64,000 nucleotides of DNA, taken from assembly GCF_022045235.1 (NCBI RefSeq), contig NW_027266264.1, positions 25,172,001 through 25,236,000 of the forward strand, given 5' to 3'. Origin of the DNA: Haliotis cracherodii. Lineage: Eukaryota. The notes beneath the pieces were generated by a model. It was not told the origin of the DNA. It did not search any database and was given only the letters and a program-made list of their open reading frames with translations. A program made the translations under genes and the position numbers. Of the stretch, positions 346-21,848 are shown piece after piece; position 1 is the first letter of the stretch, and each line of letters begins with the position of its first letter.

Positions 346-1907
346 GATATCCTCTGCACAATGAGAATCAGACTTACTATGCACTCTGAAAGAAATCTGC
401 CCCGTCAGGAATGGCATGGGGCAAAACTGACGACATTAGGGTATATTGTCCAAAGCCTCTCCCCTTCCCTTTGTATATCTCCTTCAGGTCTCCCCCGCAA
501 GCCCGGGGCAAGCATTCTTGAGACAATATATGCTCGAGGGTTGGGGGCAAGGTGCTACCCTGCTGCGATGAACCAGACACCTGGCCGGGCTTATTTGTCG
601 AAACCACCCAACCGTGTTTAATAAAACCTTCAGTAAGAACCACTGCGTCAGAGAATGGAAACAATAGCTTAAAGAGGAACAGCGGTACAAAAAGTCTTTC
701 CCAATAGTCACATAAAATTGCGTTATAGGACGGCTTAGGGTCACAGCATATTGTTGAGGGTAAGGTACAGATTGTTATACATTAAACGTCAACGCCAAAG
801 AATACTCTCGATTTACCGCCGAAACAGATCGCATTCGGCTGTTCAAAATAGTGATGAACATTATTTAATGGATCACTGAAATGTCACTCTACATTTCAAA
901 CACCTATACCTGTTTAGTTTGATTTACAGCACAGTCAAGAAAAGCATCACTATTGACATATAGTCTCTATTGAAGGTGTGTGTGTTTGGTTGGGAGGGGG
1001 AGGTCGCATATTGTGATTTGGCAATTCAAAAATGTGTAATAGTTTTTGTATATAATATAGTTTTATATAAACCAAATGAGTCTGTTATTGTGTTATTATA
1101 CGTTTAGCATAGCCGATCACCTGTGCAATTTTCAAATGTATAATTCTTCAGTACTATTCTCGAGAAAAGGTATGGAGGATGGGTGGGTCCCGCACATCTA
1201 TCTGGGTCTATGTGTAACACTCAAAGAAGATATCTATTCATGTAATGGTATTCATATATTTATCACATAAATCAAATATTATTTATACTCATAATATAAA
1301 AAAATTGAAACTTGCACTCACTGCTGAAATAAACCAATGAAACTTTTTTTTTATTGTGATAAATATAAATCATTATTTCGACATGAAGTCGACGTGTTGC
1401 TTGGGTAGAGGTGTGTGGGCGATCAGTGCGTGAAGCAATCCATTTACGTATATCACAATCCTGAGATAACACTGCCCACCACGTAGTTTTCCACGTTGAT
1501 ATGAGACGGAGATCAGACAGCATATACAGACACACACATATATACATACCATATGTGTGTGCAATGGTTGGGTCATTACCGTGATATATATAACACATTT
1601 ATCATTGAGGGCTGACGTTTTAATTATTCTTTCATATGTACAATTTATTTTAGTGTGCAATGATGCAGTTATCGCATAATTGCATATATTGTGTATGTAG
1701 TATTATGCATATTGTATATTTTAAACGCCTTGTTATTGTTGACGTTATTCATTGAAAATTCAAAACGTCAATATTATATAAGTTGAAGCCAAATTCAACC
1801 CACCCCCGTAATGTTGCGTGAGAATATATAAGCGCAGTTCACGATCCTCGAGGCATTATCACACAAACCTGTTTACCCCATGCTGATTTCACCGTTAATT
1901 GTTTACT

Positions 1908-2194
1908 GGGGAATCCCCAGCCACGATGCAGACATGATGCTCCTTTCGCAGTATATAATTCAATAAGTTGTCTGGACGATATTTAGTTTTGGACATAACA
2001 GGTTTATTTGACAGTGAGTGAAATTCCACATGAGGCCCCGCGAGTGTCACGTTTACTGCATTTCGCCAGTAGTTTTAGTCAGCCCCGGCGGCTGCTGGAA
2101 TCATTGTTGATATCATGTGACTATGACGCGTATTCAGTCTCGTTTTGAGATTGACCCCTGACATCCCGTCTTGTTTACCGGCCTGTGTATAAAA
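1908..2194 (+). promoter_or_regulatory. Proximal promoter of GNAT copy 1 (kB site, E-box, TATA)
   Basis: GGGGAATCCCC 1908-1918, TCATGTGA 2113-2120, TATAAAA 2188-2194; block alignable with upstream regions of copies 2 and 3. Confidence 0.8.
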
Positions 2195-2217
2195 GAGCAA
2201 GCGATCGTGGCATCGTC

Positions 2218-2351
2218 ATACTTCTCTCTTCACTGCAAGAGAGATTTTGAGCAGCTCTGACAACAAGTCTATCAACGACACAGCGCCCATTTACCTGACA
2301 GCTGTTTTCCAGTATATACTGAGGATTATCAACTGTGTGCGAAACTCATAA
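2218..2351 (+). other. Non-coding first exon of GNAT copy 1; intron 2352-3249
   Basis: Starts about 30 nt after TATA (TSS approximate); donor AA|GTAAGT at 2352; acceptor TTTTTTCAG ending 3249, 9 nt before ATG; same layout in all 3 paralogs. Confidence 0.8.
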
Positions 2352-3258
2352 GTAAGTATATCGACGGTGTTGCATCATTTGGGAATATTGAAATTGCGAT
2401 TTTCAACATGCTTTGACAGTCGGCTCCCTGTGATCTTTGAGCCGAGACGATTTCACCGTTCTCAGTAAATAGGTCAGGTAAATACTCTAGATTGTAAAAC
2501 TAATTATGTTTCGTTATGCATGGCTTTTATACAGGAATGTATGTTGAATGAAAATATGTCCGCCTCGTGTCACTAACTGACTATGATTACAAATAGTAGC
2601 GCTGTAAACCAAACACATCTAAAACAGCACGTGTACACCTTATGTGTTCGGCCACATGTTTATGCGACAGTCACGTTGCCTTTCTCATAATAATACCTCA
2701 GCTTACATGCCTGAAACTACATATTGTCCTCGTAGTCTAATATGTTCTCGCGTTGATATGCTGCGCTGCTCTCGACATGGTGGCAGTTCATACCATGTAT
2801 TTGTCAGCGCTCGATGTAGTTATATATTTTTTTTACGTTCAGGGGTAGACTTACATCTAATCTCTGAAATGAGCATATCGTGCAAAAGAAATATCAGTTG
2901 TTAAATTATCTTTATAAAAATATTATTAAAAGGACTAAAGAGACTCTCTTCATAATGTAGTAATCTAGACTTGCCAAACATTATAGACTTGCATGGGCTG
3001 TATCTGATATATTTGTATCAGGGTCTGTAAGACAGACTAGTTCACGGGTAGAAATCGTTTTAGCGGTTCATTTATCCTTTAGATACGTAAATAATTTATT
3101 AAATGTTAATCTTATTTTGTGTCCGTGATTTGTTATATACTCGTTAACTTATCTTTAAAAATCGAATATTCCATCAAAAATAATGTGCCCTTTTTGTCTT
3201 GAATATCTATTGCATTATATACTAAATTTCCTTTTTAACTTTTTTTCAGGACTCCATC

Positions 3259-3831
3259 ATGCTGATAAATGACAAAGTCGAAAAAGTCAAGCGCCTCCCT
3301 GGCGTTGTCCCTCACACCACCACCCTCCCCGACGGCCGCTTCGTCATTATCGACACCATGAGCGACTCCCAGCTGTCGGAAACCTTCGGCCTCATCCAAG
3401 CCGCGGCCCAGAGCGGCAATGGTTTTGGGGTGGATGAATACACCTCAGAGAAGGAATTCCGTGAAGACATCGACGGCAGCTTCAACTTCGCCGTAATGAG
3501 CAAGGACACTGGAGAGATGGTTGCTGCATTCATGTTGGCCATCAGCAAGTATTACCGTGGCTGCAGCGTTGCCGACCCTTTCATCATTGTAAAGAAGTCA
3601 GAGAGAGGCAAGGGAATCGGCGAGTTTTGTCTCCAGATGTGTGTTGACTTTGCTCAAGATTTGAACTTCATGGGAATGTATGTGGACACTTTCAGCAACA
3701 ACCGTGGCATGATCAAAATCATCGAAAATGTTGGTGGATTCACCCAAGTGGGATGTCTTCCCATGGGCGGCAAGATGAAAGATGGTTCCATTGTCAGTTC
3801 AGTCATCTTCTACAAAGATTTCAATCCATAA
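3259..3831 (+). CDS. GNAT-family N-acetyltransferase, Mpr1/AZC-acetyltransferase-like (copy 1, 190 aa)
   Basis: Acetyl-CoA motif A VKKSERGKGIG, motif B-like FSNNRGMIKIIENVGGF, C-terminal GF.QVG.LP...SSVIFYKDF; three intact copies with full gene architecture. Confidence 0.93.
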   Translation: MLINDKVEKVKRLPGVVPHTTTLPDGRFVIIDTMSDSQLSETFGLIQAAAQSGNGFGVDEYTSEKEFREDIDGSFNFAVMSKDTGEMVAAFMLAISKYYRGCSVADPFIIVKKSERGKGIGEFCLQMCVDFAQDLNFMGMYVDTFSNNRGMIKIIENVGGFTQVGCLPMGGKMKDGSIVSSVIFYKDFNP

Positions 3832-4150
3832 ACTATTGACTTTTCTTCCATGGCTTTATCTCCATTACGTCTCTACGTAGTGTACACGTCATCGCGGCTG
3901 TGATGACGTCACAACAAGGTGTTATCTGCATGAACCACAGGTAACACTCAGAGAGAGCCACTTCCGGTTAGAAGAAGCCCAGTTCCGCTATCGTTCGCTG
4001 TCCAGTGCGAACGGTGGAGCCTGCTCGGTATATAGCTACGCTGGGTCAACCGGATTGCCTTGTAGACTGGTAAACATCGGATTGAATAGAAATGTGCAAT
4101 GAGAAACGTATTGTTCATGCAACAGTATTTGTTAGTCTCGCAGTAGAAAG

Positions 4151-4156
4151 AATAAA
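4151..4156 (+). terminator. Poly(A) signal of GNAT copy 1
   Basis: AATAAA at homologous position in all copies, followed by a T-rich tract. Confidence 0.7.
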
Positions 4157-4498
4157 CATAATATTAGCTAAACGATTTGTTTTGTTCTTTTTTTTATAAA
4201 TAAATACCAATACCCATGATGTCTGTGGCATCGTGAGTACCAACCATTAACACATCATTAGATGCTTTCCAATAAAGGAAACTGTGGCTGACGTCCGTGG
4301 GAATCTTGTCCTTTTCGGTAATGGGAGATTTTCAAAGGCAGAAGGAGACACGGCTGGCAGGGTTGTGCAGGGTTGTTCATGGGTTCGAATCCCGGACAAT
4401 GGTTCCTCACATCCAAAGTATGACATCAATGCTTACTGAAATGTTAGGAGCCTATACCAAGGAGTTGAACACACATTTGAATGTATTACTCTACAATA

Positions 4499-4672
4499 CA
4501 GTAAACTACGTTTATAAAGAACACGCTTATAACGAACTGACGGATATAACGAAATGTTTTTTGGTCCCGTCCATTTGCTGTATATATGTTGTAAATCTGC
4601 TTATTACGATCTACGGTTATAACGAACTAAATTTAGTGGTCCCTTTGAGTTCGTTATAACCTTAGTTTACTG
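4499..4672. mobile_element. MITE (Tc1/mariner-pogo type)
   Basis: 24-bp TIRs CAGTAAACTA.G.TTATAA.GAAC (21/24 match), TA on both flanks; related fragment at about 60185-60248. Confidence 0.8.
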
Positions 4673-4775
4673 TACCCTCCTGCTCACAGGACGCATTTTA
4701 ACCAAATACACACACAAGCAGCATTCATGTATGTCTGCATACATCAAATTGTTAAGGCATCCTCTGTTGATGAAA

Positions 4776-5555
4776 ATGGTCAAAATTGGCTACCACACTG
4801 TCATCAAGTATCTGCAGCTAAAATGGTTAATTCCAACAGCCAGGTATCCGAACATGGAGTCAAATTTAGGGAGTTATGCACCCTCCTTTCAGCACTGTTG
4901 GCAGCGGAGAGGGAGAGAGAGCCCTGAAGATGATCCATGATGCATGATCAGGAAGACTTTGAACTGCAACCACTTAGGAAACTTGATAAAATACATAAAA
5001 TTGATTATGAATGATGATACCATTACTCATGAAAGCGTTGAGAATATTCTGGACTGGACTGGACATGACAAAGGCTTCGGCACGCAGAGTTCCAAGTCTT
5101 CGGACTCCTGATCAGAAACGCTTTAGGTGCCTCATCTCTCGTGAGAGATTACTGCGTTGTGAGTGAGTGAGTTGGGTTCATTACACAGTATTCCAGTTAT
5201 ATCACGGCGTGTCAGCTTGATGTAGGTGGCAAGCCCGAAGTGATGCAGGTCTTTGCTGAAACCCATGAACACGGGTATCGTGCTGATCAACCTAGAAGCA
5301 TAATCGGGTCGAACCGGGATTCGAACACACGATGACACGTTTATGGTGTGCCCAAGGGGCACAGCTCTACACAGTGAATTGTACGCCGCTGTGAAGCAGA
5401 CCCAGCTCATTTTGTAACCATCGAGGAGTCTTTGGGTCACAAGTATCAGTCAGAGATTAAACAACAGGCAAAGCAGTGGAAACATCCAAAGTCTCATTGG
5501 AAAGAAAAGCAAAATCTGTTCCATCTGGCAAGGTGATGGTATCGGCTTTTAAGAA
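4776..5555 (+). mobile_element. Degenerate mariner transposase fragment, split by a SINE
   Basis: Translates to MVKIGYHTVIKYLQLK..APSF, GRESPEDDP, VPSLRTPDQK, FVTIEE, EIKQQAKQWKH (mariner-type motifs) with frameshifts and stops. Confidence 0.8.
5160..5390 (-). mobile_element. SINE family B, degenerate
   Basis: Matches copies at 7890/22992/24675; (GAGT)n tail. Confidence 0.8.
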
Positions 5556-5650
5556 CTCCATACTCAAAAGTAATCTCTGTTAAAAACAGAGTTCATTGTA
5601 CGATTCCAGTTATATCATAAGCATGTGTCTGGATTTTACAACTTTTGTAT

Positions 5651-5775
5651 GAGTGAGTGAGTATGGTTTTAGGCCGCTTTTAGCAATATTCAAGCAATAT
5701 CACGACGGGGGACACCCGAAAAGGGCTTCACACATTGTACCCATGTCGGGAATCGAACCCGGGTCTTTGACGTGA
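5651..5775 (-). mobile_element. SINE family A, 5'-truncated
   Basis: B-box GGTTCGATTCC and family-A body and tail on minus strand. Confidence 0.85.
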
Positions 5776-6639
5776 ACTTTCTACTAAGATTTCAAAGGGC
5801 ATCATACGACTCTTGCTCAGGAGTTGTTTTATCAAGGTTATAATAACATATAAGGCCTCAGAAAAGTTTTTATGAAACGTTTTATGGTAGACAGGTGGAA
5901 GACATTTCCAAATTATACGCATTAGTGAGAAACTGATCTCCGTGTGACAAATTGCTCCCGTGGTTTTAGGTGAATAGTTGACTTGCCTTTGCATGTGTTT
6001 CTGACAGGTGCAACAAAAGGGGGGGAAGGGGGCGGGGGGCAGGATAGGCTCACCTTTTCGCGAACGCCTAGTATCATCACTATTAAATGGTTATTCATAA
6101 ATACTTGCTCATGATATAGTCGGAATCGTACAATCGGCTCTTTATTGTCAGAGATTTCTTAGAAATATGGAACGGATTATGTGCCTTTATCCACTTTGTC
6201 AGTTGCGGTTACGACCTTAGCGTGCAGGACATAGATATTTAGCAATGTTTCAGGTTAGTTTTGTTAGACCTGGTCCACCTCTTAGACCTCTTAGCACCAT
6301 ATTCTCTCTACTGCACACAGCGCGTTCCACAGTTCTGGCAGGAACTCAGTCCACCAATGCTTTCTACTATCCGTCGTTTATTAGGTTTACTAGCATTTAG
6401 TAAATAAGACTTACTCGCTGGTTTTTCTTTTTCGTCTTCTGTTGAATAAGATCTGTTAACCCAACTGAAGCTATATCAATCTGTTCCGCTTGGGAGTTTG
6501 CCCAGAAAATCACTGTTTGACGTCATATATTTTGTATATCGCACAGTATCGTCGGCGGAAGCACGAGATCGTCCTTTTTTTAACTTTGTCGATACTACAT
6601 GTCCACTTCAACATAGCATGATCTAGTTTGGTTTCCATA

Positions 6640-6906
6640 TGTTTGTTTTGTTTGTTTGTTTGTTGTTTTACGCCGCACCTAGCAATATTCCCGCTATATG
6701 ACGGCTGTCTGTAAATATTCGAGTCTGGACCAGTCATCACGAGCATCGATCCACACAATCGGGCTACGATGACATGCATCAACCAAGTCAGCGAGCCTGA
6801 CCACCCGATCCCGTTAGTCGCCTCTTACGACAAGCATAGTCGCCTTTTACGGCAAGTATGGGTTGCTGAAGACCTACATGTATTCTAGACCAGATCTTCA
6901 CGGGTC
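6640..6906 (-). mobile_element. Retroposon family C (no tRNA head)
   Basis: 5' GACCCGTGAAGATC, GTCGTAAGAGGCGACTAA core, (AAAC)n tail, TSD TGGTTTCCATA 6629-6639/6907-6917. Confidence 0.9.
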
Positions 6907-7324
6907 TGGTTTCCATACGACCCACGACTATGTCAACAATATATATATGTCCTTTTTCTAGCATTATGTTTGTATCAGTGACTTAAAATTGACTAAACTT
7001 AACATGATTTGTTGGGGACTATACCATGTTCAACCACTGACTGGCCTTATGTGGAAACACATGTAAAATCATCCGACGACAATATGCATGACAAGAAAGA
7101 ATTCTCGCCTTCGACGTAGTTTGTCAACTCACATCTACTTTTAAATACACCACATGTATACAATAGTTCTCCACAAGTCTGATATTCTCGTATGTGTAAC
7201 AGTAACGTATCAAACTTTGATTAGGTAAGGTAAAACCAAACCCATTCCACACCAGTTCTCTGCCCTCGTGGTTAAATTACTCAATCGTGTTTACCACATG
7301 CTTATTGCCGCGTTAATCGTTTCC

Positions 7325-7610
7325 GGGGAAATCCCCAGCCGCTCAACACAAACAAGATAATTTTGTCCAAGTCAATGTTTTCGATAATTTGTCTGAACAA
7401 TATTTAGTTTGGCAAATAACAGGTTTATTTGACAATGTGTCAAATCCTGCATGACGCCCTGTGATTGACATGTTTACCACATTTCGTCATATGTAGAGGC
7501 CAGGCGGCTGCGGGAAATATTGTTGATATCACATGACAAAGACAGGCATCCAATCTCGCTCAGAGATTTGGCCTGACATTCCGTCCCATTCTGCCGTCAG
7601 GTGTATAAAA
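7325..7610 (+). promoter_or_regulatory. Proximal promoter of GNAT copy 2
   Basis: GGGGAAATCCCC 7325-7336, TCACATGA 7529-7536, TATAAAA 7604-7610. Confidence 0.8.
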
Positions 7611-7633
7611 GAGCAAGTGATCAAGGCTACCAT

Positions 7634-7761
7634 CACACTTCTCTCATGACTGCAAGTCAGATTTCCAGCAGCTCTGACAAGTTTTGCTACCAACGGCACC
7701 GTCTCCATTTACCTGACAGGTGTTTACCAGTACATACCTTGGTTTATAAACCGACTGCAAA
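7634..7761 (+). other. Non-coding first exon of GNAT copy 2; intron 7762-8442
   Basis: Homologous to copy 1 exon; donor AA|GTGAGT at 7762; acceptor CTCTTTTTTCAG ending 8442. Confidence 0.78.
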
Positions 7762-7889
7762 GTGAGTATATCTATCCTTGTTGCAATACTCGCGAATATC
7801 GAAATTTGAAATGTGGAGGAATCTACCTAAAATGTTTTATGTGACTTACTTCGTAATATCTAATTATTTTATATGTCTATAGTGGAACA

Positions 7890-8170
7890 GGGGGCACGGG
7901 TGGCCCAGTCGTCCAAGGCGCCGCAATTCGCTGTGCAGAGTTGCGTCCCTTGGGCACGCCAGAAACCTATGATTGTGGGTTCGAATCCCGGTTCGCTCCG
8001 ATTATGTTTCTATGTTTGTAAGCACCATACCCGTGCTCGTGGGTTTCACCGAAGTGGTAAACGTCTGAGATCACTTCGGGCTTTCCTCCCATATTTTACA
8101 TTTTCCTCCCGTGATATAACTGGAATACTGTTATAAGCGGCGTTAAACCCAACTCACTCACTCACTCACA
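7890..8170 (+). mobile_element. SINE family B (tRNA-Leu/Ser-like head) in the intron of GNAT copy 2
   Basis: A-box GTGGCCCAGTCG, B-box GGTTCGAATCC, (ACTC)n tail, TSD-like TA.TGGAACA. Confidence 0.9.
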
Positions 8171-8451
8171 TTACTGGAACATACTGACATTTCGATTCCT
8201 GAATTTGTCGACTTAAACGGAGGTACATATAACTGTGAGCTACTTAGCATTTCCTTTACAACCCTTCAATTTTAACCTCTTCTTAAGAAATGACTTACAG
8301 AGATTGCATTCCCCATTGCTCCTCATGTCCAATTATTCAGGTCACAGACTCACGCAAAGTCTTCCCATAACTTCAACAGTTCCCTTTCTGTTTTCGTCTT
8401 GCATGAGTATTTCATTGTACATTAAGTATCCTCTTTTTTCAGGACTCCATC

Positions 8452-9027
8452 ATGCTGATAAATGACAAAGTAGAAAAAGCCAAGTGCCTCCCTGGCGTTG
8501 TCCCTCACACCACCACCCTCCCCGACGGCCGCTTCGTCATCATCGACATCATGAGCGACTCCCAGCTGTCGGAAACCTTCGGCCTCATCCAAGCTGCGGC
8601 CCAGAGCGGCAATGGTTTTGGGGTGGATGAATACTCCTCAGAGAAGGAATTCCGCAAAGACATCGACGGCAGCTTCAACTTCGCCATAATGATCAAGGAA
8701 AGTGGAGAGATGGTTGCTGCATTTATGTTGGCCATCAGCAAGTATTACCGTGGCTGCAACAGCGTTGCCGACCCTTTCGTCATTGTAAAGAAGTCAGAGA
8801 GAGGCAAGGGAATCGGCGAGTTTTGTCTCCAGATGTGTGTTGACTTTGCTCAAGATTTGAACTTCATGGGAATGTATGTGGACACTTTCAGCAACAACCG
8901 TGGCATGATCAAAATCATCGAAAATGTTGGCGGATTCACCCAAGTGGGATTTCTTCCCATGGGCGGCAAGATGAAAGATGGTACCATTGTTAGTTCAGTC
9001 ATCTTCTACAAAGATTTCCATTCATAA
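8452..9027 (+). CDS. GNAT-family N-acetyltransferase (copy 2, 191 aa)
   Basis: Paralog of 3259-3831 with 14 substitutions plus one inserted Asn; motif A intact. Confidence 0.93.
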   Translation: MLINDKVEKAKCLPGVVPHTTTLPDGRFVIIDIMSDSQLSETFGLIQAAAQSGNGFGVDEYSSEKEFRKDIDGSFNFAIMIKESGEMVAAFMLAISKYYRGCNSVADPFVIVKKSERGKGIGEFCLQMCVDFAQDLNFMGMYVDTFSNNRGMIKIIENVGGFTQVGFLPMGGKMKDGTIVSSVIFYKDFHS

Positions 9028-9325
9028 TATATTGACTTTTCTTTCAAGGCTTTGTCAGTTACGTCTCTACGTGGTGTACACGTCATCGCGGCTATGATGG
9101 CGTTACAACAAGGTGTTATCTGCATGAACTACAGATAACACACAGAATGAGTCACTTCCGGTTAGAAGAAGCCCAGTTCCGCTTTTGTTCACTGTCCAGT
9201 GTGGTCAGTGGAGCCTGCTCAGCATGTATGTACGCTGGGTCAACCGGATTGACTTGTAGACTAGCTAACATCGAATTGTTGTTGTATTGTTCATGCAGCA
9301 GTATTTGTTAATCTGACAATAGAGA

Positions 9326-9331
9326 AATAAA
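9326..9331 (+). terminator. Poly(A) signal of GNAT copy 2
   Basis: AATAAA at position homologous to copy 1. Confidence 0.7.
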
Positions 9332-10289
9332 TACAATACAAACAAAATTATTTGTCTGTTATCGCCTGATTTTAGTTGAATACATATTCGCATGAAATGT
9401 TCTTTGAACCTTGCAGCATCTGGAGCATCGCTAGCACCAACACATAACTAACTCATCACTAGATGACCTTTAGAGTAAGAGGAGTCTGGTGATTTTGCAA
9501 AGAAAGAGAGGGGCACGAGTTGAGCCCCTAAAACATTCCATGATCTTTGTTTGAATCAGAGCTTCACCCTAAATGTGATCCCTGTTTTTATGTGATACCT
9601 TTTTTGTGTGTGTGTCAACTTAGTGGCAAACGTCCACTTTCCTGTCACGTAATCAGTGAAATATTGTTCAAAACGACGTTAAACCCAACTCACCGAGTTA
9701 GAGTTCACTCACATCATTAATTTACCTGCTCAATTACGCCCAGAACACTCAGAATTAGCAACGAGCCCAGATCATATGTCTGTGATCACTGGACCACAGG
9801 TCCCGAGTGATTAGAAAGGAATGTTTTTAACACTCGACTTTGTGGAAGAATGCGGACGTGACTCCAGAGGAATAACACCAGCACTTCCCTACAATCGACC
9901 CCATGGTACCGCCTACGTACCGACAACGCAAGAAGACATGCCTCTCTTAACAAGATATACAGTGGATGGCGAATGTATCTAACTGATTCTAAGCCTTCGT
10001 GATTGCTGACTAGGGCGACAATGACATTTCTCATCTTCCCTAAAAGACAGAACGTGAAAAGCTTTTATTGTAAAGTGGCATCCTGTATGCAGTTGGTACA
10101 TTCTACTGTTCACCTCTACCTTTCCTACAGACTTACAAATACACAGTCTGTGTAAGAATAAAAGTCCAGGTCCAGATAACGCGTGCAATGAACATTTGTT
10201 GTTTGCAGGCATTAATATTCTCGCGAAACTTACCACTTTATTTAACATAATTCTCAAAACGGAATATCCCTTCTAACAAAAACAAACTT

Positions 10290-11000
10290 GGATGGTCATC
10301 TCTTTTTAATAGGGTAAAAAAGATAAATCCAATCCAAAAAGCTATAGGGGAATTACTCTGACTTCATGTCTGGGAAAACAATTTGAAAATGTAATTTTAC
10401 AACGATTGGAAGAATGGTGTAAGGCACATTGTCCATCCTTTCCAGAACCTCTACAATTCGGATTTCGAAAAGAGCATGGTGCATTATGTCTGTCTTTACA
10501 TTACATGAATGTGTTTATTATGTATCTGGGAAATCACCTGCAGGCCTTCAAGTTGCTCTTAACACTGTTACACAGTATGCTTATGATCGGAGATTAACTT
10601 ACAATGCCACTAAAAAGCCAAACTGTTATATTCACTAGATTGAATTCCCAACATAATCCCTCCAAATTTCAACTGGGTAGTGTCACAGGTCAGATTGTGT
10701 AACATATGGGGGAGTCATTCTAAACATTTAACTAACATGTACGGATATGTTGACAAAATGCAAGACGCACCGGAAGCTCACTAAAGTCTGTAGGATTAAA
10801 TAGTTATGATCTCCACCCTAGTGTATGTGTAGAAATATGGCACTGATTGGTTCTCTCTACTAGCTTCTATGCGTGTGAGCTGCTAAGCGGCATACGACGT
10901 GGTAAAGAAACTGATCAGATAGAAAATGTCCAACGGCACTTTGCCAGAGTCATCGAAGATCTAGACCAAAACTCATTATCTGATTCAACCATAGCAAATC
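10290..11000 (+). mobile_element. Decayed non-LTR retrotransposon reverse transcriptase (CR1/L2-like)
   Basis: KKDKSNPKSYRGITLTSCLGKQFENVILQR, LQFGFRKEHG, SPAGLQVALN..LTYNATK, ENVQRHFARVI; internal deletion; element probably extends about 9.8-11.6 kb. Confidence 0.8.
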
Positions 11001-11699
11001 CTGGAATGTAGACACTAACGGAATTCATAGACAAATGCAGGCTACTCCTCCTCGGAAGACTGGGCAAACTCATGCTTCTCTCCTATGAAACAAATTATAT
11101 GTGCATACATAGCCTCAGCCAATGTTCATAATGTCAACACTAGCACTAGCATATGTGACATAATGATGTTAACTTCTTGTAAGTATAACCTTAAAAATGA
11201 TATGTGTAACTGTATCAGTACTGGAACATTTCCTTACAAAAATGAATGGAGAAGAAGTTAATGTGATGCAATATCCTCATATGAAGAAGATAGGTTGAAA
11301 CTCAGACTGTTACTGTACGAGAATCTGGCCCGATACGGGTCAATTCACTCTCAACTAAAACTACATATATTACGGCAACTCAAACTAACTTATCTTCATC
11401 TTAGGTATTGCCTCCACTACTCTCTTAAGATAGCCTCCCGACCCATTACATCACAAGGGCAGAATAATTAATTTTTATGTGCAGATCGTTTTCATCTAAC
11501 ATTTCTGTGGCTTTTTTTTTACATCACGCACACATTGCTGTGTGATCTTAATTCTAGTGACTTAAGCTAGATGTAAACGCTACTGGAATGTTGGTTAACC
11601 GTGCACTGTTTACAGCAACTGTAGTATACATATCTTGAGTCAACAGTTATATATATCATTAACATTATCTGTCAGTTAAAGACTGTATTATGACCGGGT

Positions 11700-11797
11700 C
11701 CCACGAAACTGGCTTCACGTGTAACCATGTATGGAATCGATCCTGTGTTTCGGAATGACGCGACAAAGGCTTAACCACTTGGCTACCACACCACCCC
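11700..11797 (-). mobile_element. SINE family A head, degenerate
   Basis: Diverged tRNA-like head on minus strand. Confidence 0.6.
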
Positions 11798-12101
11798 AGT
11801 CCCCAGTGTTACAAATACTTTGGTTATTTAGCATTTTTTCTATACTACTGTTAAGTTTTAAGGTTAAGGTACTTAAATATATTACCTGCAGTTGTGTTAC
11901 ACACTACCATGCTATTCACATTACAATGGAATTAAAGTGTGAAATCTAAAATAGATCAGCAGCGTCATTGAAGTCAGAAATTTGGTCAGTTACATCAAGT
12001 GAGATGAAACAGGAGGCTTTTATGACTCACAGACGAGGCAGACACCTGCGTAATTCAGTATTAACATGAGTATATGCCACTTACACGTGTTACGTAACAG
12101 T

Positions 12102-12245
12102 GGCGGGCGGGTAGCCTAGTGGTTAAAGCGTTCGCTCGTCAGAGGCCCGGGGTAGATTCCCCACCATGCGTGAAGCCTATTTCTGGTGTCCCCCGCCGTG
12201 ATGTTGCTGGAATATTGATAAAGTGGCGTAAAACCATACTCGCTC
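12102..12245 (+). mobile_element. SINE family A
   Basis: GGTAGCCTAGTGGTTAAAGCGTTCGCTCGTCA head and GGAATATTG..GGCGTAAAACCATACTC tail. Confidence 0.88.
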
Positions 12246-12289
12246 GGTTATACACAACATAACACAATATAGTGATTCAACTACAACCA

Positions 12290-12404
12290 CCTGGGCTCGG
12301 GGTCTGTATACTGTGTCAGAGTGGGGTATTCATGTTAAATTGCGGCATGGTATCTCAGTGAGCTTGCACTATAAATCGGCATCAGTCTGGACTAGTACAA
12401 GCAG

Positions 12405-12450
<46 letters not shown>
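12290..12450 (+). mobile_element. SINE family D 3' fragment with expanded (CA)n
   Basis: Matches reverse complement of about 40370-40480. Confidence 0.75.
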
Positions 12451-12451
<1 letters not shown>

Positions 12452-13203
12452 CAACATGACACAGTGACTGGAAACGATATAAACATGTTCTCTGTACAAA
12501 TTAAGGACCATGTGATGACAGCTGTCAATAAAATGTGTTCTCGGAGTGAGTTCACGCTTTTGTTATGAATCGTTATGTCATAAAGTATTAAACTGGCCTG
12601 TTCATTGCAAATGTACTGGTCACCGTTGTAACGTCAAAATATTCTCCTAAAGCACCTGTTGCAAAGTTCAAGTACAAAATGTCCATATGTTACGAATTGA
12701 CAAAAATGTGTTCGTTGTTTGATCTCGAGCCAACTAGGTCATATCACTACCGCACACATGTTGCAGAAAGGCTACTCAAATATGCTGTGTTTACACGTAT
12801 ATTGTACAAGTACATCACGATTGTCGTGCAGGAAAATGTAAATACTACAATACTTACACGTGTTGCTTGCTCTGCTTACACACTAAGTACCAGAAGTTGA
12901 TAAATATTTGTAGATATATGGTGTAAATGCAAGCCAACAGAAAAGTTACAATCTGACACAATGCTGTGTTATGTACATTAACTTAAAACTTTAATAAGTT
13001 TTAAAGAACCTCAGAACCTATGGTCACATTACCTTTGTCTGATACAATACTATGCAGTCACTGCATGTACGGTGTTGTATGTGTGTGATGTTGCGAGTGT
13101 GTAGCCCGTCATGAGATGACAGTTATTTTATTTAAAGCGACCTCACACTCCACTGACTGACCACATCACGGACTATGCACTATTCACAATAACATAGTAA
13201 CAA

Positions 13204-13254
<51 letters not shown>

Positions 13255-13292
13255 AGAGAGGAGAGTGTGTGTGATAGAGAGAGAGATAGAGA
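13204..13292. repeat. (GT)n/(GA)n compound microsatellite
   Basis: Direct reading. Confidence 0.95.
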
Positions 13293-13336
13293 GTGTATGA
13301 GGCATGCATGTGAGAATGAGTTGGTATTGGGGAATG

Positions 13337-14735
13337 TGTGACTGAGAGAGTATGGATCAAGTGTAACTGAGTGGGCATGGATCAAGTGTAACTAAGAGAG
13401 TATGGATTAAGTGTAGCTAAGAGAGTATGGATCAAGTGTAACTGAGTGGATATGGATCAATTGTAATTGAGAGAGTGTGGATCAAGTGTAACTGAGAGAG
13501 AATGGATCAAGTGTAACTGAGTGGGCATGGATCAAGTGTAACTAAGAGAGTATGGCTCAAATGTAACTGAGAGAGTATAGATCAAGTGTAACTGAGGGAG
13601 TATGGATCAAGTGTAACTGAGTGGGTATTGATCAAGTGTAACTGAGTGGATATGGATCAAATGTAACTGAGAGAGTATGGATCAAGTGTAACTGAGAGAG
13701 TATGGATCAAGTGTAACTGAGAGAGTATGGATCAAGTGTAACTGACTGGGTATTGATCAAGTGTAACTGAGTGGGTATGGATCAAATGTAACTGAGGGAG
13801 TGTGGATCAAGTGTAACTGAGGGAGTATGGATCAAGTGTAACTGAGTGGGTATTGATCAAGTGTAACTGAGTGGGTATTGATCAAGTGTAACTGAGTGGG
13901 TATGGATCATGTGTAACTGAGTGGATATGGATCAAGTGTAACTGAGAGAGTATGGATCAAGTGTAACTGAATGGGCATGTATCAAGTGTAACTGAGAGGG
14001 TATGCATCAAGTGTAACTGAGAGAGTATGGATCAAGTGTAACTGAGAGAGTATGGATCAAATGTAACTGAGAGAGTATGGATCAAGTGTAACTGAGAGAG
14101 TATGGATCAAATGTAACTGAGAGAGTATGGAACAAATGTAACTGAGAGAGTATGGATCAAGTGTAACTGTGAGAGTATGGATCAAGTGTAACTGAGAGAG
14201 TATGGATCAAGTGTAACTGAGTGGGCATGGATCAAGTGTAACTGAGAGAGCATGGATCAAGTCTAACTGAGAGAGTATGGATCAAGTGTAACTGATTGGA
14301 CATGGATCAAGTGTAACTGATTGGACATGGATCAAGTGTAACTGAGAGGGTATAGATCAAGTGTAACTGAGAGAGTAGGGATCAAATGTAACTGAGAGAG
14401 TATGGATCAAGTGTAACTGAGTGGGTATGGATCAAGTGTAACTAAGAGAGTATGGATCAAGTGTAACTAAGAGAGTATGGATCAAGTGTAGCTTAGAGAG
14501 TATGGATCAAGTGTAACTGAGTGGGTATGGATCAAGTGTAACTGAGAAAGTATGGATCAAGTGTAACTAAGAGAGTATGGATCAAGTGTAGCTTAGAGAG
14601 TATGGATCAAGTGTAACTGAGTGGGTATGGATCAAGTGTAACTGAGAAAGTATGGATCAAGTGTAGCTTAGAGAGTATGGATCAAGTGTAGCTGAGTGGG
14701 TATGGATCAAGTGTAACTAAGAGAGTATGGATTAG
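13337..14735. repeat. 25-bp tandem satellite
   Basis: About 56 units of GGATCAAGTGTAACTGAGAGAGTAT. Confidence 0.97.
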
Positions 14736-15024
14736 TGTGTTTCAAAGAACCTGACCAAAAGCACAGAAACAGCAAATCTGACACAACCAGAATTTCGAGA
14801 GGGGAAGGCTGCATAAAACACTTTCAGAGCCAAAACATCGGACACTTTGCCAAAGTTGAGGTAAATGTGAGGCATGATGATTAAATGTTTTTCACCAAAT
14901 ACATTGCTAGCTTACCATTCGTGCAAAAAAGGACATGTTTAACAGTGTACAATGAATAAGACAACAAATCTATAGGACAGCGGGGAATACGTTCGCTGCC
15001 GTTGGCCAACATTTCCTTGCGGAT

Positions 15025-15708
15025 AGCCGCATCATACAGCCGGGGGCAACGGTACCTTGAACAGATGCTCGAGGGATGGGGCAAGTTGCTGTCCTGCTGC
15101 GGTGACCCCGGAGCGTGGTCGGGCTATATGAGTCTACCCAGTCGTGCGTCACAAATCTTTACATAGAACAACTGCGTCAGAGAATGCAAGCAAAAGATGA
15201 ACGAGGAATAGTGATGACAGATTCTTGCCCAATAATTATATAAATTGCGTTATAGGACGGCTCGGGGTCACAGCATATATTTCAGATATGTTGACGGTTA
15301 GGTCCACTTTGTCATATCTAATGTCACAACATTTCACACGCCTACGCTTTTTTGTTTGTTTTACAGTTCAGTCACGATAACCATCAACAGTTTCATAAAA
15401 GGATTCTGTTCAGAACAGTTATATAAATAAAACATGTACCAGGTGTTCCTATACTTGTTACGAATGAATAATATATGTATATATTATATAAGTACTTGCA
15501 AGTCAAGTATACAGTCCATTATTTTTTAAATTTAAAACACAACACAACATTAGAGAACTTATTCGGAGGTGTGTTGTGTTTTAAATTTACAATGTTTACT
15601 ATCATCTGTAAAATTTCCACTAGGTTAACCGACCTCCCCCGTTCGCATAAAAGAGCACGCGATGAAGGGTATCGTCACGCTTCTATCTTCCCTGCAAGAG
15701 ATATTTGG
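15025..15708 (+). pseudogene. Relic fourth GNAT unit (upstream block, core promoter and start of exon 1 only)
   Basis: 15025-15400 aligns to 495-965; 15646-15708 CATAAAAGAGCACGCGAT..CCTGCAAGAGATATTTG aligns to copy 1 TATAAAAGAGCAAGCGAT..ACTGCAAGAGAGATTTTG; no CDS follows. Confidence 0.7.
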
Positions 15709-16866
15709 TGATATGTGATTATTTTATTGATTTGAGGAATTCATCTGGTGGACTACCTCCTGAAAGGTCAGATCATTCGTGGCCCATGGCCAATATTATG
15801 TTAATCTGCTTAAACATCTGTGTGAGAATATAAATGCGACATTTCGTGGAAAAGTCACAAGTTCTACCAGGTCTGATATCGCAATGCCTGCAGTCCATGA
15901 CTGGATTTGACCTCATCGAGCATTCTCATATTGACCAGATTTGGCATCGCAATCTTGAAGAAAGAACTATCAGGCAACTATAATGAAAATGAAAATGGCG
16001 TCATTTCTTTTTAAACAACTATGAGGAAGCCTACAGCAGCGCGATCCAAACACAACAGCATCCTTGGTAGAAGTGTGGGAGAGGATTAAGTTGAGATAAA
16101 TAAGAAGCAACCAACTCCACCAGCGCAGTCCATCATACACATGTACTAACCGAAAAAGGCAAGCGTGCTTCATATAAAGTTCCATAAAAATATTATTATT
16201 CTGAAATTAAATATTGTTTATGCGTCTTTCAAGACATATTCATGAAGACATCTCCTCCATTTTGAGGTAGTGATTCACAATTTGCAAGTGCCTGTCAATG
16301 CATGGCGCACCGTTTGCGTGTTATTTGGGAGTATGATACTCATACACGGGTTTTTTTAAATGCGTACAGCACACAATGATGTCGAGCTATCAGTTCTTTT
16401 AGAAACAATTTTGTTAAACCGTAAAAAAACGCTTAAGCAATGGCACAAAAATCAACGTCTACCCGACGTGGGTATGCTGCAGACAGGATAGGCGTAAAAC
16501 GAAGTTGCCAGACATTTTAATGTTCATCGAAACACATTATTATCTCGTTGGAGACGTTACCTACAGCAGGGCCACGACCCGGTCGTCCACGTATGACGTC
16601 ACGTCAACAAGGCAACCATGTTCGTTTGGTAGGTTACCACGCGCAACCGGTCGAGGGAGCACAACACCCGGCCCCGACGTCCAGAAGTTCACTCTAAGTT
16701 GCTTCCAAGTCACCGTAATGCACGCCTAGATTCGTGTAGGCAGTATCTGACAGGTCTGGGACAGTATACTGTTCACAGAGGAGTAATGGTTGTATCTGTA
16801 CAACTCTGATAATCGTGCAAGGGTATGCAGGCGTCCGTGGCAGTGCTTGCGTTACTCAACGTCGTC

Positions 16867-17410
16867 CATCTTCCCGAGGCAAGAGAGTTAACTGACTTTA
16901 AAAGTCCAGTTTCCACCCTTGCCGAACTAGGCTGGAATTCCTGGGCTCGATCGTAGCGCCACCAGTGGCTGTTACGAGTTATGTCCCTTCTATGCCTCTC
17001 CAATCAGAGGACCAATCAGATTCCACCTCTCGTATCACATGCATTTGCTTCAAACAAAATGGCGGCGCCCAGACAATCTGATCGACAATCAAGATCTATA
17101 TTGTAATACAACGGGTCTTACATCACGAAGTGCATCAAATCATGTGAGCACCTTGATTAAAAATTTGAAAAGATTTGGAAAATTTATGTTGACAACGAGT
17201 TTGCGGTGCACATGCTTTGCAAATCCTGCAATCGACCGAATTCTGCATGGCAGTTAACAAACCGGATTTCGATTTCGGTGCGCGATTGTGATTGGACCAT
17301 GCATAGACTCGTTAGTCCAGCCAAAATCAAACTCCATAATACCAGCCAAGTTCGGCAAGGGTGGAAACTGGACTTTTATAGTCAGTTAACTCACTTGACT
17401 CGGGAAGATG
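16867..17410. mobile_element. 544-bp non-autonomous DNA transposon (MITE)
   Basis: About 65-bp TIRs starting CATCTTCCCGAGGCAAG; flanks AACGTCGTC/AACGTCGTA (probable 9-bp TSD); second copy at 53648-54191. Confidence 0.92.
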
Positions 17411-17552
17411 AACGTCGTAAGTTTGGGGATGAAAGTGTAATTGTATGGAGTGGCTTCACAACAAACAGGAGGACACAACTCATCATTGTTAATGGCAATT
17501 TGAATGGCGTACACAAACGGGACCACATCTATATTGTTCAAGGTCTTGTGGG

Positions 17553-17760
17553 GAAACCTATGATTGTGGGTTCGAATCCCGGTTCGACCCGATTATGTTT
17601 CTAGGTTTGTCAGCACCATACTCGTGCTCGTGGGTTTCACCGAAGTGGTAAACGTCTGAGACCTGCATCACTTCGGGCTTTCCTCCCACATTTAGCTGAC
17701 AGGCCGCAATGTAACTGTAATACTGTTAAAAGCGGCGTTAAACTAAACTCACTCACTCAC
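17553..17760 (+). mobile_element. SINE family B, 5'-truncated
   Basis: B-box, body and (ACTC)n tail. Confidence 0.88.
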
Positions 17761-18318
17761 GATCTTGTTCTAACCTTTGTGAAAATGCAGAACCATAACA
17801 TCCCGTTGCAGCAGGATAATTCCCTTCCACATGTTGCCTAGTATAATTAGGCTAAGAACCTTTTAGCCACCCCTCATATATACAACTGATATCAATTAGA
17901 AACTATCATTCATAAAAATGCTAATGCGGCCGATTTCGCTTTAAGCTGCATCGTCTTGATTTACTGCACTCGTTGTACTACTCCCTAACTTAAATGTTAG
18001 TTATTAACTGATCCGAATGTTATATTAAAATACATGGGGGTGGGGAGGTGGAGGGGTTGGTTATCAATGGTCGGACATCTTTGCTTAACCAGCGCTAACT
18101 GACCTCGCAGGGTGTAAGTACAGATAGCGAACTACGGTGTGAAAACTATGATCCTTTCTAAGATGAAGACCATCATATGACTTCCTTTAATGAAATGCAT
18201 CTAGTAACGAGTGTTTGTACTATCGATGCTAAAGATGTTGCATGGTTAAAAAAATTCACCATGTGTATTAGTATTCAATTTAAATCAAACGATAACAAAT
18301 CTTTTTATTGGTATTTTA

Positions 18319-18324
18319 TTTATT
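18319..18324 (-). terminator. Poly(A) signal of GNAT copy 3
   Basis: AATAAA on minus strand at homologous position. Confidence 0.7.
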
Positions 18325-18641
18325 CTTGCAATTGCCAGACTAACAAATACTGTTGCATGAACAATACCTTTCTCATTGCACATTTCTAATACAATCCGAT
18401 GTTTACCAGTCAACAAGGCAATCCGGTTGACCCAGCGTAAAAAAATACTGAGCAGGCTCCACTGACCACACTGGACAGTGAACGAAAGCGAAACTGGGTT
18501 TCTTCTAACCGGAAGTGACACCTTCTGGGTGTTATCTGAGGTTGATGCTGATAACACCTTGTGACGTCATCACAGCCGCGATGACGTGTACACTACGTAG
18601 AGACGTAATGGAGATAAAGCCATGGAAGAAAAGTCAAAAGT

Positions 18642-19214
18642 TCATGGATTGAAATCTTTGTAGAAGATGACTGAACTAACAATGGTACCATCTTTCATCT
18701 TGCCGCCCATGGGAAGACATCCCACTTGGGTGAATCCACCAACATTTTCGATGATTTTGATCATGCCACGGTTGTTGCTGAAAGTGTCCACATACATTCC
18801 CATGAAGTTCAAATCTTGAGCAAAGTCAACACACATCTGGAGACAAAACTCGCCGATTCCCTTGCCTCTCTCTGACTTCTTTACAATGATGAAAGGGTCG
18901 GCAACGCTGCAGCCACGGTAATACTTGCTGATGGCCAACATGAATGCAGCAACCATCTCTCCAGTGTCCTTGCTCATTACGGCGAAGTTGAAGCTGCCGT
19001 CGATGTCTTCACGGAATTCCTTCTCTGAGGTGTATTCATCCACCCCAAAACCATTGCCGCTCTGGGCCGCAGCTTGGATGAGACCGAAGGTTTCCGACAG
19101 CTGGGAGTCGCTCATGGTGTCGATGATGACGAAGCGGCCGTCGGGGAGGGTGGTGGTGTGAGGGACAACGCCAGGGAGGCGCTTGACTTTTTCGACTTTG
19201 TCATTTATCAGCAT
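18642..19214 (-). CDS. GNAT-family N-acetyltransferase (copy 3, 190 aa, inverted)
   Basis: Differs from copy 1 by one residue (KDGS/TIV); acceptor TTTTCAG at 19224-19230 on minus strand. Confidence 0.93.
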   Translation of the reverse strand: MLINDKVEKVKRLPGVVPHTTTLPDGRFVIIDTMSDSQLSETFGLIQAAAQSGNGFGVDEYTSEKEFREDIDGSFNFAVMSKDTGEMVAAFMLAISKYYRGCSVADPFIIVKKSERGKGIGEFCLQMCVDFAQDLNFMGMYVDTFSNNRGMIKIIENVGGFTQVGCLPMGGKMKDGTIVSSVIFYKDFNP

Positions 19215-20272: not shown

Positions 20273-20489
20273 AAGCTTTTATGTTTGATTTTGTCTTTTA
20301 ATAACAAATTGTAGTATTTTTTCTTTGAGTATAAATCATATTTACAATTTGGTCGATAATTTGAAAGAAGATATTATTAAAGAAGGGCGTGACAAATGTC
20401 CAATTATCGACCAAATTGTAAATATCTTTTATACTCCAAGAAAATATGCTACAACTTTTATTAAAAGACAAAATCAAAGATAAAAGCTG
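20273..20489. mobile_element. AT-rich palindromic MITE in the intron of GNAT copy 3
   Basis: About 90-bp inverted arms (20273-20361 / 20402-20489), TA on both flanks; absent from introns of copies 1 and 2. Confidence 0.82.
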
Positions 20490-21158: not shown

Positions 21159-21291
21159 TTATAAGACTTCTGCTATCAGTTGGTAATCCACGGTATATAC
21201 ACCTGTCAGGTAAATGGACACGATATCGTTGGTAGTAGGACTTGCTGTCAGAGCTGTCTGAAATCTGTCTTGCTGTCAAGAGAGAAGTGTA
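21159..21291 (-). other. Non-coding first exon of GNAT copy 3; intron 19224-21158
   Basis: Homologous to exon 1 of copies 1 and 2; donor ATAA|GTAAGT at 21158. Confidence 0.78.
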
Positions 21292-21314
21292 GCGAAACCC
21301 TGGATCGCTTGCTC

Positions 21315-21596
21315 TTTTATACACAGGCCGGTAAACAGGACGGGATGTCAGGGGTCAATCTCAGAACGAGACTGAATGCGCGACATAGTCACGTGATATC
21401 AACACTTATTTCCCACAGCTGTCTGGGCTGACTTCTGCAACTGACGAAATGCAGTAAACATGTTTCTCACGGGAGCTCGTGCGGACATTGTCAAATAAGC
21501 CTGTTATTTGCACAACTAAGTATCGTTCAGGCAAAATATCGAACAATTTAGCCTGAAAAGATCAGCTTGTTTATGCTTAGTGGCTGGGGATTCCCC
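21315..21596 (-). promoter_or_regulatory. Proximal promoter of GNAT copy 3
   Basis: TATAAAA 21315-21321 (minus), TCACGTGA 21389-21396, GGGGATTCCCC 21586-21596. Confidence 0.8.
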
Positions 21597-21848
21597 CGTA
21601 AACGATTAATGCCTCAAGCAGCGGGCATGTGGTAAATAAGGTTGGGTGATTTCACCACGAGGACAGTGATCGCGGCTTCTCGCGCACCATGACAGGAGTG
21701 GGTTGGATTAGTTTTGCCTTAACTTTAACAAGACTTGCACTATATAAATACCATGAACACAATATATGCAATTATGCCATATAACTGCAACATTGCATAC
21801 TAAAAAAATTATTTGAAAAATTATAATTAAGGTGATTACAACAAAACT

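What the first reader, a model, noticed from the sequence alone, without database searches (positions are those of the whole stretch)
3259..19214. Cluster of intron-free Mpr1-like GNAT acetyltransferases in an animal: candidate horizontally acquired detox/defence system
Seen: three intact paralogs whose CDS lies in one exon, visibly more GC-rich than the flanks, with the only intron in the 5'UTR. From memory of the family, the segment YRG..VADPFIIV...RGKGIG...A..L.F..M....F.NN....I....GF..VG.LP.......V...I.YKD parallels fungal Mpr1/Spt10-type and related bacterial GNATs more than animal NAT/AANAT/SSAT enzymes. The position matching Mpr1's substrate-binding Asn (CNAGF) appears to be Asp (ADPFI), hinting at another substrate. 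Inference: a microbial-type gene domesticated by gaining a promoter and UTR intron, then amplified for dosage, perhaps acetylating dietary (algal) or bacterial amines or imino acids.
Basis: partly seen in the sequence, partly recalled or inferred. Interest (0 to 1): 0.75.

Follow-up and report, generated by a model that had tools for sequence, protein, structure and literature searches.

The report
Ancient mollusc Mpr1-like acetyltransferase triplet
Three intact abalone genes encode an unstudied acetyltransferase that is distantly related to yeast Mpr1 and shared across snails and bivalves; it likely acetylates a small amine, its coding parts are likely kept alike by gene conversion, and it is an old inherited family rather than a recent import from microbes.

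Summary
Observation confirmed: three intact single-exon CDSs (190/191/190 aa) with a GT-AG intron in the 5'UTR (splice seen for two copies in probable RNA contigs). The Mpr1 likeness is real: Mpr1 is the top solved-structure hit of the family profile (E 9e-10), ties for best fold match, and its essential Asn178 is invariant (N148); Asn135 aligns with an invariant Asp106, the position of the PAT/ArsN acidic base. The recent-HGT reading fails. Orthologues at 41-95% identity run through gastropods and bivalves and follow the mollusc tree; the triplet is already annotated in four Haliotis species; three more paralogues lie in this genome; a second, deep clade sits on unnamed animal contigs. The best bacterial relative (Mpr1-like, Bacillota type) is only 21% identical, and the animal family forms its own clade beside, not inside, ten sampled bacterial Mpr1-like proteins. 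A transfer older than the snail-bivalve split remains open. New here: promoters and first exons of the copies differ by 19-25% but synonymous sites by 3-6%, indicating gene conversion of the coding exon. Substrate unknown; likely a small amine rather than Mpr1's imino acids.

The parts
1835..2351 (+). Copy A upstream block: promoter-like region with TATA-like motif at 2188-2194 and non-coding exon 1 ending at the GT donor (start of transcription not determined)
   Evidence: Homologous in all three copies at 75-81% identity; exon joined to 3250 in probable RNA contigs
2352..3249 (+). Copy A 5'UTR intron, 898 nt, GT..AG
   Evidence: Joint 2351-3250 'skips 898, GT..AG' in X1 and X2
3259..3831 (+). 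Copy A CDS, 190 aa Mpr1-like GNAT, single coding exon
   Evidence: identical to annotated protein P0107
3832..4172 (+). Copy A 3'UTR to poly(A) sites near 4163-4172
   Evidence: poly(A) loose ends in X2
7253..7761 (+). Copy B promoter-like region and exon 1
   Evidence: 73-75% identical to A and C blocks; splicing not observed
7762..8442 (+). Copy B predicted 5'UTR intron with a SINE-like repeat at 7890-8169
   Evidence: GT/AG sites by homology; repeat copies elsewhere in window
8452..9027 (+). Copy B CDS, 191 aa; 13-14 nonsynonymous differences and one extra Asn codon relative to A/C
   Evidence: identical to P0112
15647..15706 (+). Orphan fragment of the TATA/exon-1 block with no CDS behind it; possible relic of a fourth unit
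   Evidence: 82% over 60 nt to copy A; no further CDS match in window
18642..19214 (-). Copy C CDS, 190 aa, inverted; differs from A by 1 residue
   Evidence: identical to P0109
19224..21158 (-). Copy C 5'UTR intron, 1935 nt
   Evidence: GT/AG sites; spliced junction matches a loose end in X4
21159..21669 (-). Copy C exon 1 and promoter-like region
   Evidence: 75-81% identical to A and B blocks

Best explanation
The three genes are members of an old, vertically inherited mollusc family of Mpr1-like GNAT enzymes that likely act as homodimers transferring acetyl from acetyl-CoA to a small amine, and the abalone copies are old tandem duplicates whose coding exon is likely kept alike by gene conversion. 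Mechanism (inferred from alignment): direct transfer, with invariant Asn148 (Mpr1 Asn178) stabilising the leaving CoA thiolate and invariant Asp106 (Mpr1 Asn135; position of the PAT/ArsN acidic base) helping to hold or deprotonate the amine; Asp59/Glu60/Asp106/Asp143 would make the acceptor pocket more acidic than Mpr1's, favouring a cationic small amine or amino-acid analogue (dietary, microbial or endogenous) over proline-like imino acids. A and C would supply dosage of one enzyme from two differently regulated promoters; B has partly escaped conversion. The family predates the gastropod-bivalve split; its ultimate source (very old bacterial transfer or eukaryotic inheritance) is unresolved.
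For: Family: 61 of 62 profile hits at E<=1.1e-51, 41-95% identity; all 26 named hits are gastropods or bivalves. Tree: bivalves (96/96), patellogastropods (99/92), Haliotis+Gigantopelta (98/89), caenogastropods+Aplysia (99/95). Mpr1 likeness: top PDB hits of the broad profile are Mpr1 (9e-10) and 4h89 (1.5e-9); VIA Z 18.4-17.8 tie of 4h89, 1vhs, 1yvo, BAR, Mpr1, with Mpr1 aligning longest (180 residues, rmsd 3.1). N148, E60, G55, R116 invariant in 39 of 39 rows of the broad alignment; D106, D143, R100 in 39 of 39 of the core alignment. N178 essential in Mpr1 (PMC4964394, passage); Glu88/Asp85 base position in PAT/ArsN1 (PMC6465285, passage); D106 aligns with the Glu of the PAT-family strand in 1vhs and ArsN1a. 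Homodimer score 0.67, best of 3 controls 0.01, runs agree in at least 97% of contacts, pLDDT at least 87; mark reached by 21 of 30 microbial and 7 of 16 animal solved homodimers and 0 of 23 / 0 of 30 single chains; relatives are solved dimers, so the pass may be by likeness. Conversion: synonymous differences 4/122 (A-C), 7/122, 5/122 against 19-25% in promoter and exon 1, Fisher p 1.5e-7 and 3e-6; lineage residues (E8, K11) shared by all six copies of this genome and H. rufescens, while Lys69 marks one copy in each of four species; orthologous B promoter in another run differs at only 7/202 and 18/404 sites.
Against: No enzyme assay; substrate is inferred from residues alone. D106 is not kept in the second animal clade (Ser/Ala/Thr) and the register of D143 against Mpr1 Asn172 or Leu173 differs between alignments. 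The role of Mpr1 Asn135 is recalled; the primary paper could not be opened. Fold matches to PAT, Mpr1 and N-terminal acetyltransferases lie within 2 Z units, so fold does not fix the substrate class. Conversion is inferred from DNA of one genome plus proteins of three others; positional orthology in H. rubra and H. asinina was not checked. Range outside molluscs is poorly sampled because the full HMMER search never ran.
Confidence: 0.6

Rival explanations
1. Ancient horizontal transfer: a bacterial Mpr1-like gene entered a stem mollusc or earlier animal more than about 500 million years ago (date from established mollusc phylogeny), gained a promoter and 5'UTR intron, and diversified into several subfamilies. 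Compatible with the best explanation; it concerns origin only.
For: Best non-animal match is a full-length bacterial Mpr1-like protein (47 bits on the mollusc-only profile, 24-185 of 192 positions), above the 24 bits of fungal Mpr1; the whole GNAT domain lies in one exon in all six abalone genes and in the second-clade loci checked; named hits are confined to molluscs.
Against: [quoted passage not shown]
Confidence: 0.4
2. Eukaryotic inheritance: the animal family is the orthologue or old paralogue of fungal Mpr1/NgnA, kept in some invertebrates and lost in vertebrates and model animals.
For: Mpr1 ranks first among solved structures for the broad profile; deep second animal clade; no nesting in bacteria; Mpr1 orthologues occur across fungi such as Aspergillus NgnA (PMC8016842, passages).
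Against: No fungal or protist protein appeared among the hits of three word-limited searches; bacterial Mpr1-like proteins score higher than Mpr1 on the mollusc-only profile (47 against 24 bits). No fungal sequence could be put in the trees.
Confidence: 0.35
3. True Mpr1 activity: the enzyme acetylates cyclic imino acids (AZC-type algal compounds, hydroxyproline, P5C) for detoxification or oxidative-stress control.
For: Catalytic Asn and the aromatic of the G-x-x-[FY] loop (F56, Mpr1 Tyr75 through a bacterial bridge) are kept; abalone graze macroalgae (general knowledge).
Against: Asn135 position is Asp in 39 of 39 core rows, which would repel a carboxylate (role of Asn135 recalled); orthologues are equally conserved in carnivorous neogastropods, filter-feeding bivalves and land snails, so an algal diet does not explain the family.
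Confidence: 0.15
4. Recent, abalone-specific acquisition of a microbial gene, amplified by recent duplications.
For: Intronless CDS, GC above flanks, near-identical copies.
Against: Orthologues at 48-73% in other gastropods and bivalves following the species tree; no relative found in GTDB genomes by pattern scans (0 of 51 and 0 of 55 candidates confirmed); promoters of the copies are 19-25% diverged.
Confidence: 0.01

Closest known systems
Yeast Mpr1 (L-azetidine-2-carboxylate N-acetyltransferase; PDB 3w6s/3w6x/3w91) and Aspergillus NgnA
   Same: GNAT fold with N-terminal extension aligned over 180 residues (Z 17.8); Arg129/R100, Asn178/N148, Tyr75/F56 positions and C-terminal G-x-x-P...KD pattern; predicted dimer
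   Different: About 19% structural identity; Asn135 is Asp; the F-N motif before the catalytic Asn is Y-V-D; substrate untested; animal-only clade
Bacterial Mpr1-like GNATs (Kribbella 4h89 type and a Bacillota type with a G-E-A-F-P-Q loop)
   Same: Top VIA match (4h89, Z 18.4); best non-animal profile score, full-length and nearly gap-free (47 bits)
   Different: 21% identity; separate clade in the tree; themselves uncharacterised as far as these calls show
Phosphinothricin/methionine-sulfoximine/arsinothricin acetyltransferases (BAR/PAT, PA4866, YncA, ArsN1)
   Same: Tied fold matches (Z 18.0-18.3; first Foldseek hit 1vhs); Arg and acidic residue of the beta-4 strand align
   Different: ArsN1a model scores 38-40 bits against a cut-off of 170; PAT rows form a separate clade; lacks the N-terminal extension
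Annotated 'uncharacterized' Haliotis genes (H. rufescens LOC124131676/678/679/680; H. rubra LOC124286303/316/317; H. asinina XP_067667841-844)
   Same: Orthologous cluster; the three window proteins are in NCBI/UniRef letter for letter
   Different: No function or family assignment given there beyond N-acetyltransferase domain

Membership tests
GNAT superfamily | Pfam Acetyltransf_1 above gathering score; GNAT fold; R-x-x-G-x-G acetyl-CoA loop | tested here: met
   27.7-28.2 bits against cut-off 20.7; model pLDDT 88.8 matches GNATs; R116 and G121 invariant in the core alignment
Mpr1 family | Catalytic Asn178 | tested here: met
   N148 aligns with Asn178 and is invariant in 39 of 39 rows; role from PMC4964394
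Mpr1 family | Asn135 in the acceptor site (role recalled) | tested here: not met
   Asp in 39 of 39 core rows; Ser/Ala/Thr in the second clade
Mpr1 family | Closest sequence/fold relationship to Mpr1 among solved GNATs | tested here: inconclusive
   First by broad profile, second to 1vhs by core profile, tied within 1 Z with four others, not among the Foldseek rows shown
Mpr1 family | Acetylates cyclic secondary amines (AZC, cis-4-hydroxyproline) | not testable with these tools
   Needs an enzyme assay
Mpr1 family | Homodimer; missing beta-bulge | tested here: inconclusive
   Dimer predicted, 0.67 against best control 0.01, possibly by likeness; bulge not examined (coordinates not available)
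PAT/ArsN1 family | NCBIfam ArsN1 curated cut-off | tested here: not met
   37.7-40.3 bits against 170
PAT/ArsN1 family | Acidic general base on the beta-4 strand and substrate Arg | tested here: met
   D106 and R100 align with the Glu and Arg of 1vhs and ArsN1a; numbering equivalence to Glu88/Asp85 is inferred
Known animal GNAT families (NAA, AANAT, SSAT, GNA1) | Best sequence/fold match to an animal family | tested here: not met
   Human NAA50 8.5e-4 and NAA60 5.7e-3 against Mpr1 9e-10; eukaryotic N-terminal acetyltransferases at Z 16.5 or lower
Horizontally transferred gene | Nesting inside a microbial clade with support | tested here: inconclusive
   Not nested among 10 bacterial Mpr1-like rows, p-AU 0.043 for the closest grouping, but sampling is thin and has no fungi or protists
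Horizontally transferred gene | Narrow, recent distribution in the recipient lineage | tested here: not met
   Gastropods and bivalves throughout plus a second animal clade
Retrocopy | Intron-containing parent gene in the same genome | tested here: inconclusive
   All six matches in this genome are single-exon, but exon-by-exon searches can miss a split parent

The most novel reading that the evidence does not exclude
A bacterial Mpr1-like acetyltransferase was captured by an early lophotrochozoan or stem mollusc, re-tuned with an acidic pocket for a new amine substrate, and founded an unrecognised invertebrate phase-II detoxification family with cytosolic and peroxisomal (SKL-ended) branches; abalones keep a dosage-amplified triplet under old, divergent promoters by gene conversion.
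Probability: 0.25. Interest if true: 0.6.

Novelty: new variant of a known kind. Interest (0 to 1): 0.36.

Why it matters
Mpr1-type chemistry (Asn-assisted acetyl transfer) is described from fungi; an uncharacterised animal branch conserved across snails and bivalves points to a small-molecule acetylation pathway missing from mollusc biochemistry, with small soluble enzymes that are easy to assay. The converted coding exon under three divergent promoters is a neat case of concerted evolution in farmed abalones. It is not a recent HGT, which lowers the surprise.

Tried and rejected
Full HMMER search of cluster representatives never ran, so range outside molluscs rests on three word-limited searches. 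Pattern scans: GTDB genomes 0 of 51 and 0 of 55 candidates confirmed; viral contigs 0 of 126; these find close relatives only. ESM Atlas gave generic bacterial GNAT clusters at 0.96-0.97 for both queries, no use for origin. Plasmid tblastn with five animal queries gave at best E 2e-3, one none. No RNA holder on record as RNA was listed; contigs over copy B carried A/C-type letters in 3 probable RNA runs, which shows nothing about B's expression. Mpr1 was not among the Foldseek rows shown. PF13420 scan of the own genome found nothing. GC as a donor signature rejected: other paralogues have ordinary GC3. No other host gene recognised among 37 window ORF frames scanned. The phylum of the second animal clade could not be fixed. 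The primary Mpr1 structure paper was not held. Literature searches listed no paper on this mollusc family; supplements were not searched and may hold HGT or expression lists naming these loci. Earlier-findings look-ups gave nothing relevant (one search listed three unrelated proteases).
Full report
OBSERVATION. The window holds three unbroken ORFs: A 3259-3831 (+), B 8452-9027 (+), C 18642-19214 (-), each a Pfam GNAT. Each has an AG acceptor 9 nt before the ATG and a homologous upstream exon with a GT donor. Contigs of four probable RNA runs laid on copy A skip the intron: exactly 2352-3249 with GT..AG in 2 of 4 (one study), with six other letters at the joint in the other 2; one loose end matches copy C's exon 1 joined to exon 2; poly(A) ends lie at 4163-4172. 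B's splicing was not seen. CDS GC is 0.49-0.50 against 0.42. The host is an abalone (Haliotis), judged from 91-95% hits; the three proteins are already in NCBI/UniRef.

DISTRIBUTION. A single-sequence search gave 39 hits among 71 candidates and the core profile 62 among 2604; 61 lie at E<=1.1e-51 and 41-95% identity, and all 26 named hits are gastropods or bivalves. The own genome has three more single-exon paralogues: one about 35 kb past the window end (56%) and two on another contig (33-35%), each with an acceptor just before its ATG. H. rufescens and H. rubra each have three annotated close copies and H. asinina three gene models. A profile of divergent members found a second clade (P0062, P0120-P0131); its loci on metagenome contigs are animal DNA: introns, microsatellites, and an LDLa-LRR-7TM receptor next door. 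Its phylum is undetermined; the abalone genome has nothing closer than 22-31% to the three of its members tried. In L023 paralogues lie in tandem and one has a GT-AG intron in the coding region. An ML tree of 58 rows recovers bivalves, patellogastropods, Haliotis+Gigantopelta and caenogastropods+Aplysia as supported groups: vertical descent from before the gastropod-bivalve split.

RELATION TO MPR1. The core profile hits 1vhs (9.6e-5) and Mpr1 (1.7e-4); the broad profile ranks Mpr1 (9e-10) and 4h89 (1.5e-9) first of 70. The AlphaFold model (pLDDT 88.8) ties 4h89, 1vhs, 1yvo, BAR and Mpr1 at Z 18.4-17.8, Mpr1 aligning most residues; Foldseek puts 1vhs first and does not list Mpr1 among the rows shown. 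Counting in chain 3w6x: Arg129=R100, Asn135=D106, Asn178=N148, Tyr75=F56 through a bacterial bridge. Asn178 is essential in Mpr1, which acetylates only cyclic secondary amines and is a dimer (PMC4964394, passages read). D106 also aligns with the Glu of PAT-family proteins; Glu88 is the general base in ShPAT and Asp85 its ArsN1 counterpart (PMC6465285, passages read; equivalence inferred). Asn135's carboxylate-binding role is recalled. A homodimer is predicted at 0.67 against a best control of 0.01, with runs agreeing in at least 97% of contacts and pLDDT at least 87; the mark was reached by 21 of 30 microbial and 7 of 16 animal homodimers and none of the single chains, and relatives are solved dimers, so the pass may be by likeness. 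The interface holds conserved D59, S96, R100, G101, Y141, P168, G171. So it works like a Mpr1/PAT-type small-molecule N-acetyltransferase (inferred), but is not filed as Mpr1 because the Asn135 feature fails.

ORIGIN. Ten plasmid hits scored at most 30 bits on the mollusc-only profile; a Bacillota-type Mpr1-like protein from a phage-collection record scored 47 bits, full length, at 21% identity, below the 57 bits of the second animal clade. In a 41-row tree the 24 animal rows form one side (98/95), the 10 bacterial Mpr1-like rows another (97/92), unresolved with tabtoxin-resistance-like proteins; holding animals with the Bacillota-type trio gives p-AU 0.043, a marginal result for a group named after seeing the tree. 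No fungal or protist row was available, and the full HMMER search did not run. A spider orthologue group is labelled AZC acetyltransferase in PMC5381867 (one table row seen). Recent transfer is refuted; ancient transfer (0.4) and eukaryotic inheritance (0.35) remain.

CONCERTED EVOLUTION. Promoter blocks are 75-78% and first exons 79-81% identical among the copies, CDSs 96-99%. Synonymous differences are 4, 7 and 5 of about 122 sites (Fisher p 1.5e-7 for A-C, 3e-6 for A-B, against promoter plus exon 1), with a 100-column stretch of the CDS identical in all three and a patchwork of partners in the 3'UTR. B's promoter in another run differs by only about 4%, so the duplications are older than that divergence. 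Residues E8 and K11 are shared by all six copies in this genome and H. rufescens but not by H. rubra or H. asinina, whereas Lys69 marks one copy in each of the four species. This fits old duplicates with repeated conversion of the coding exon (inferred). GC3 is 0.63-0.64 in the triplet and 0.46-0.50 in the other three paralogues, fitting biased conversion or codon bias rather than a donor signature. B carries 13-14 nonsynonymous changes against 1 between A and C.

LITERATURE. Ten searches listed no paper on this family. Read: passages of PMC4964394, PMC8016842, PMC6465285, PMC5381867 and bioRxiv 10.64898/2026.09.25.754441; the first third of PMC12631010 (a different NAT, not relevant). Supplements were not seen.

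VERDICT. A real, conserved, uncharacterised mollusc branch of Mpr1-like GNATs, amplified and homogenised in abalones. New variant of a known kind; interest 0.36.

Noticed in passing
window 15647-15706 (with 13336-14732 and 15065-15316): A lone TATA/exon-1 fragment follows a second copy of the 25-bp minisatellite and of a 250-bp block that also lie upstream of copy A (1-347, 530-779): possibly the relic of a fourth duplication unit without CDS.
   Followed up: partly
G000:C1:25271251-25271793 (L004): Fourth cluster member about 35 kb past the window end, 56% identical, matching H. rufescens LOC124131680; not homogenised with the triplet.
   Followed up: partly
G000:C2:13579991-13591775 (L005, L006): Two divergent tandem paralogues (33-35%); L006's protein ends in SKL, a peroxisomal-type signal (motif recalled). 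Most second-clade proteins end in SKL/SKI/SRL/SNL/ANL, whereas the triplet does not.
   Followed up: partly
L023 4726-8579: Tandem array of at least four family members on an unnamed animal contig; one has a coding intron (7328-7501) and two appear by eye to lack the catalytic Asn.
   Followed up: partly
L019 2360-8722 (-): GRL101-like receptor gene (C-type lectin, LDLa, LRR, 7TM) next to a second-clade acetyltransferase.
   Followed up: no
window 30378-31100 (+): Truncated Tc1/mariner-type transposase ORF (HTH_Tnp_Tc3_2 E 9.7e-9, partial DDE_3).
   Followed up: no
window 7890-8169, 22991-23272, 24683-24966, 38008-38287: Abundant SINE-like repeat, one copy inside copy B's intron; very deep in all laid runs.
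   Followed up: no
window 20268-20494: A 230-nt palindromic element (81% self-complementary) inside copy C's intron.
   Followed up: no
window 34239-35594, 46879-47845, 51574-52647, 56462-57746, 61603-62156: Minisatellite arrays of 25-49 bp; the long repetitive ORFs at 57-58 kb come from the 33-bp array.
   Followed up: no
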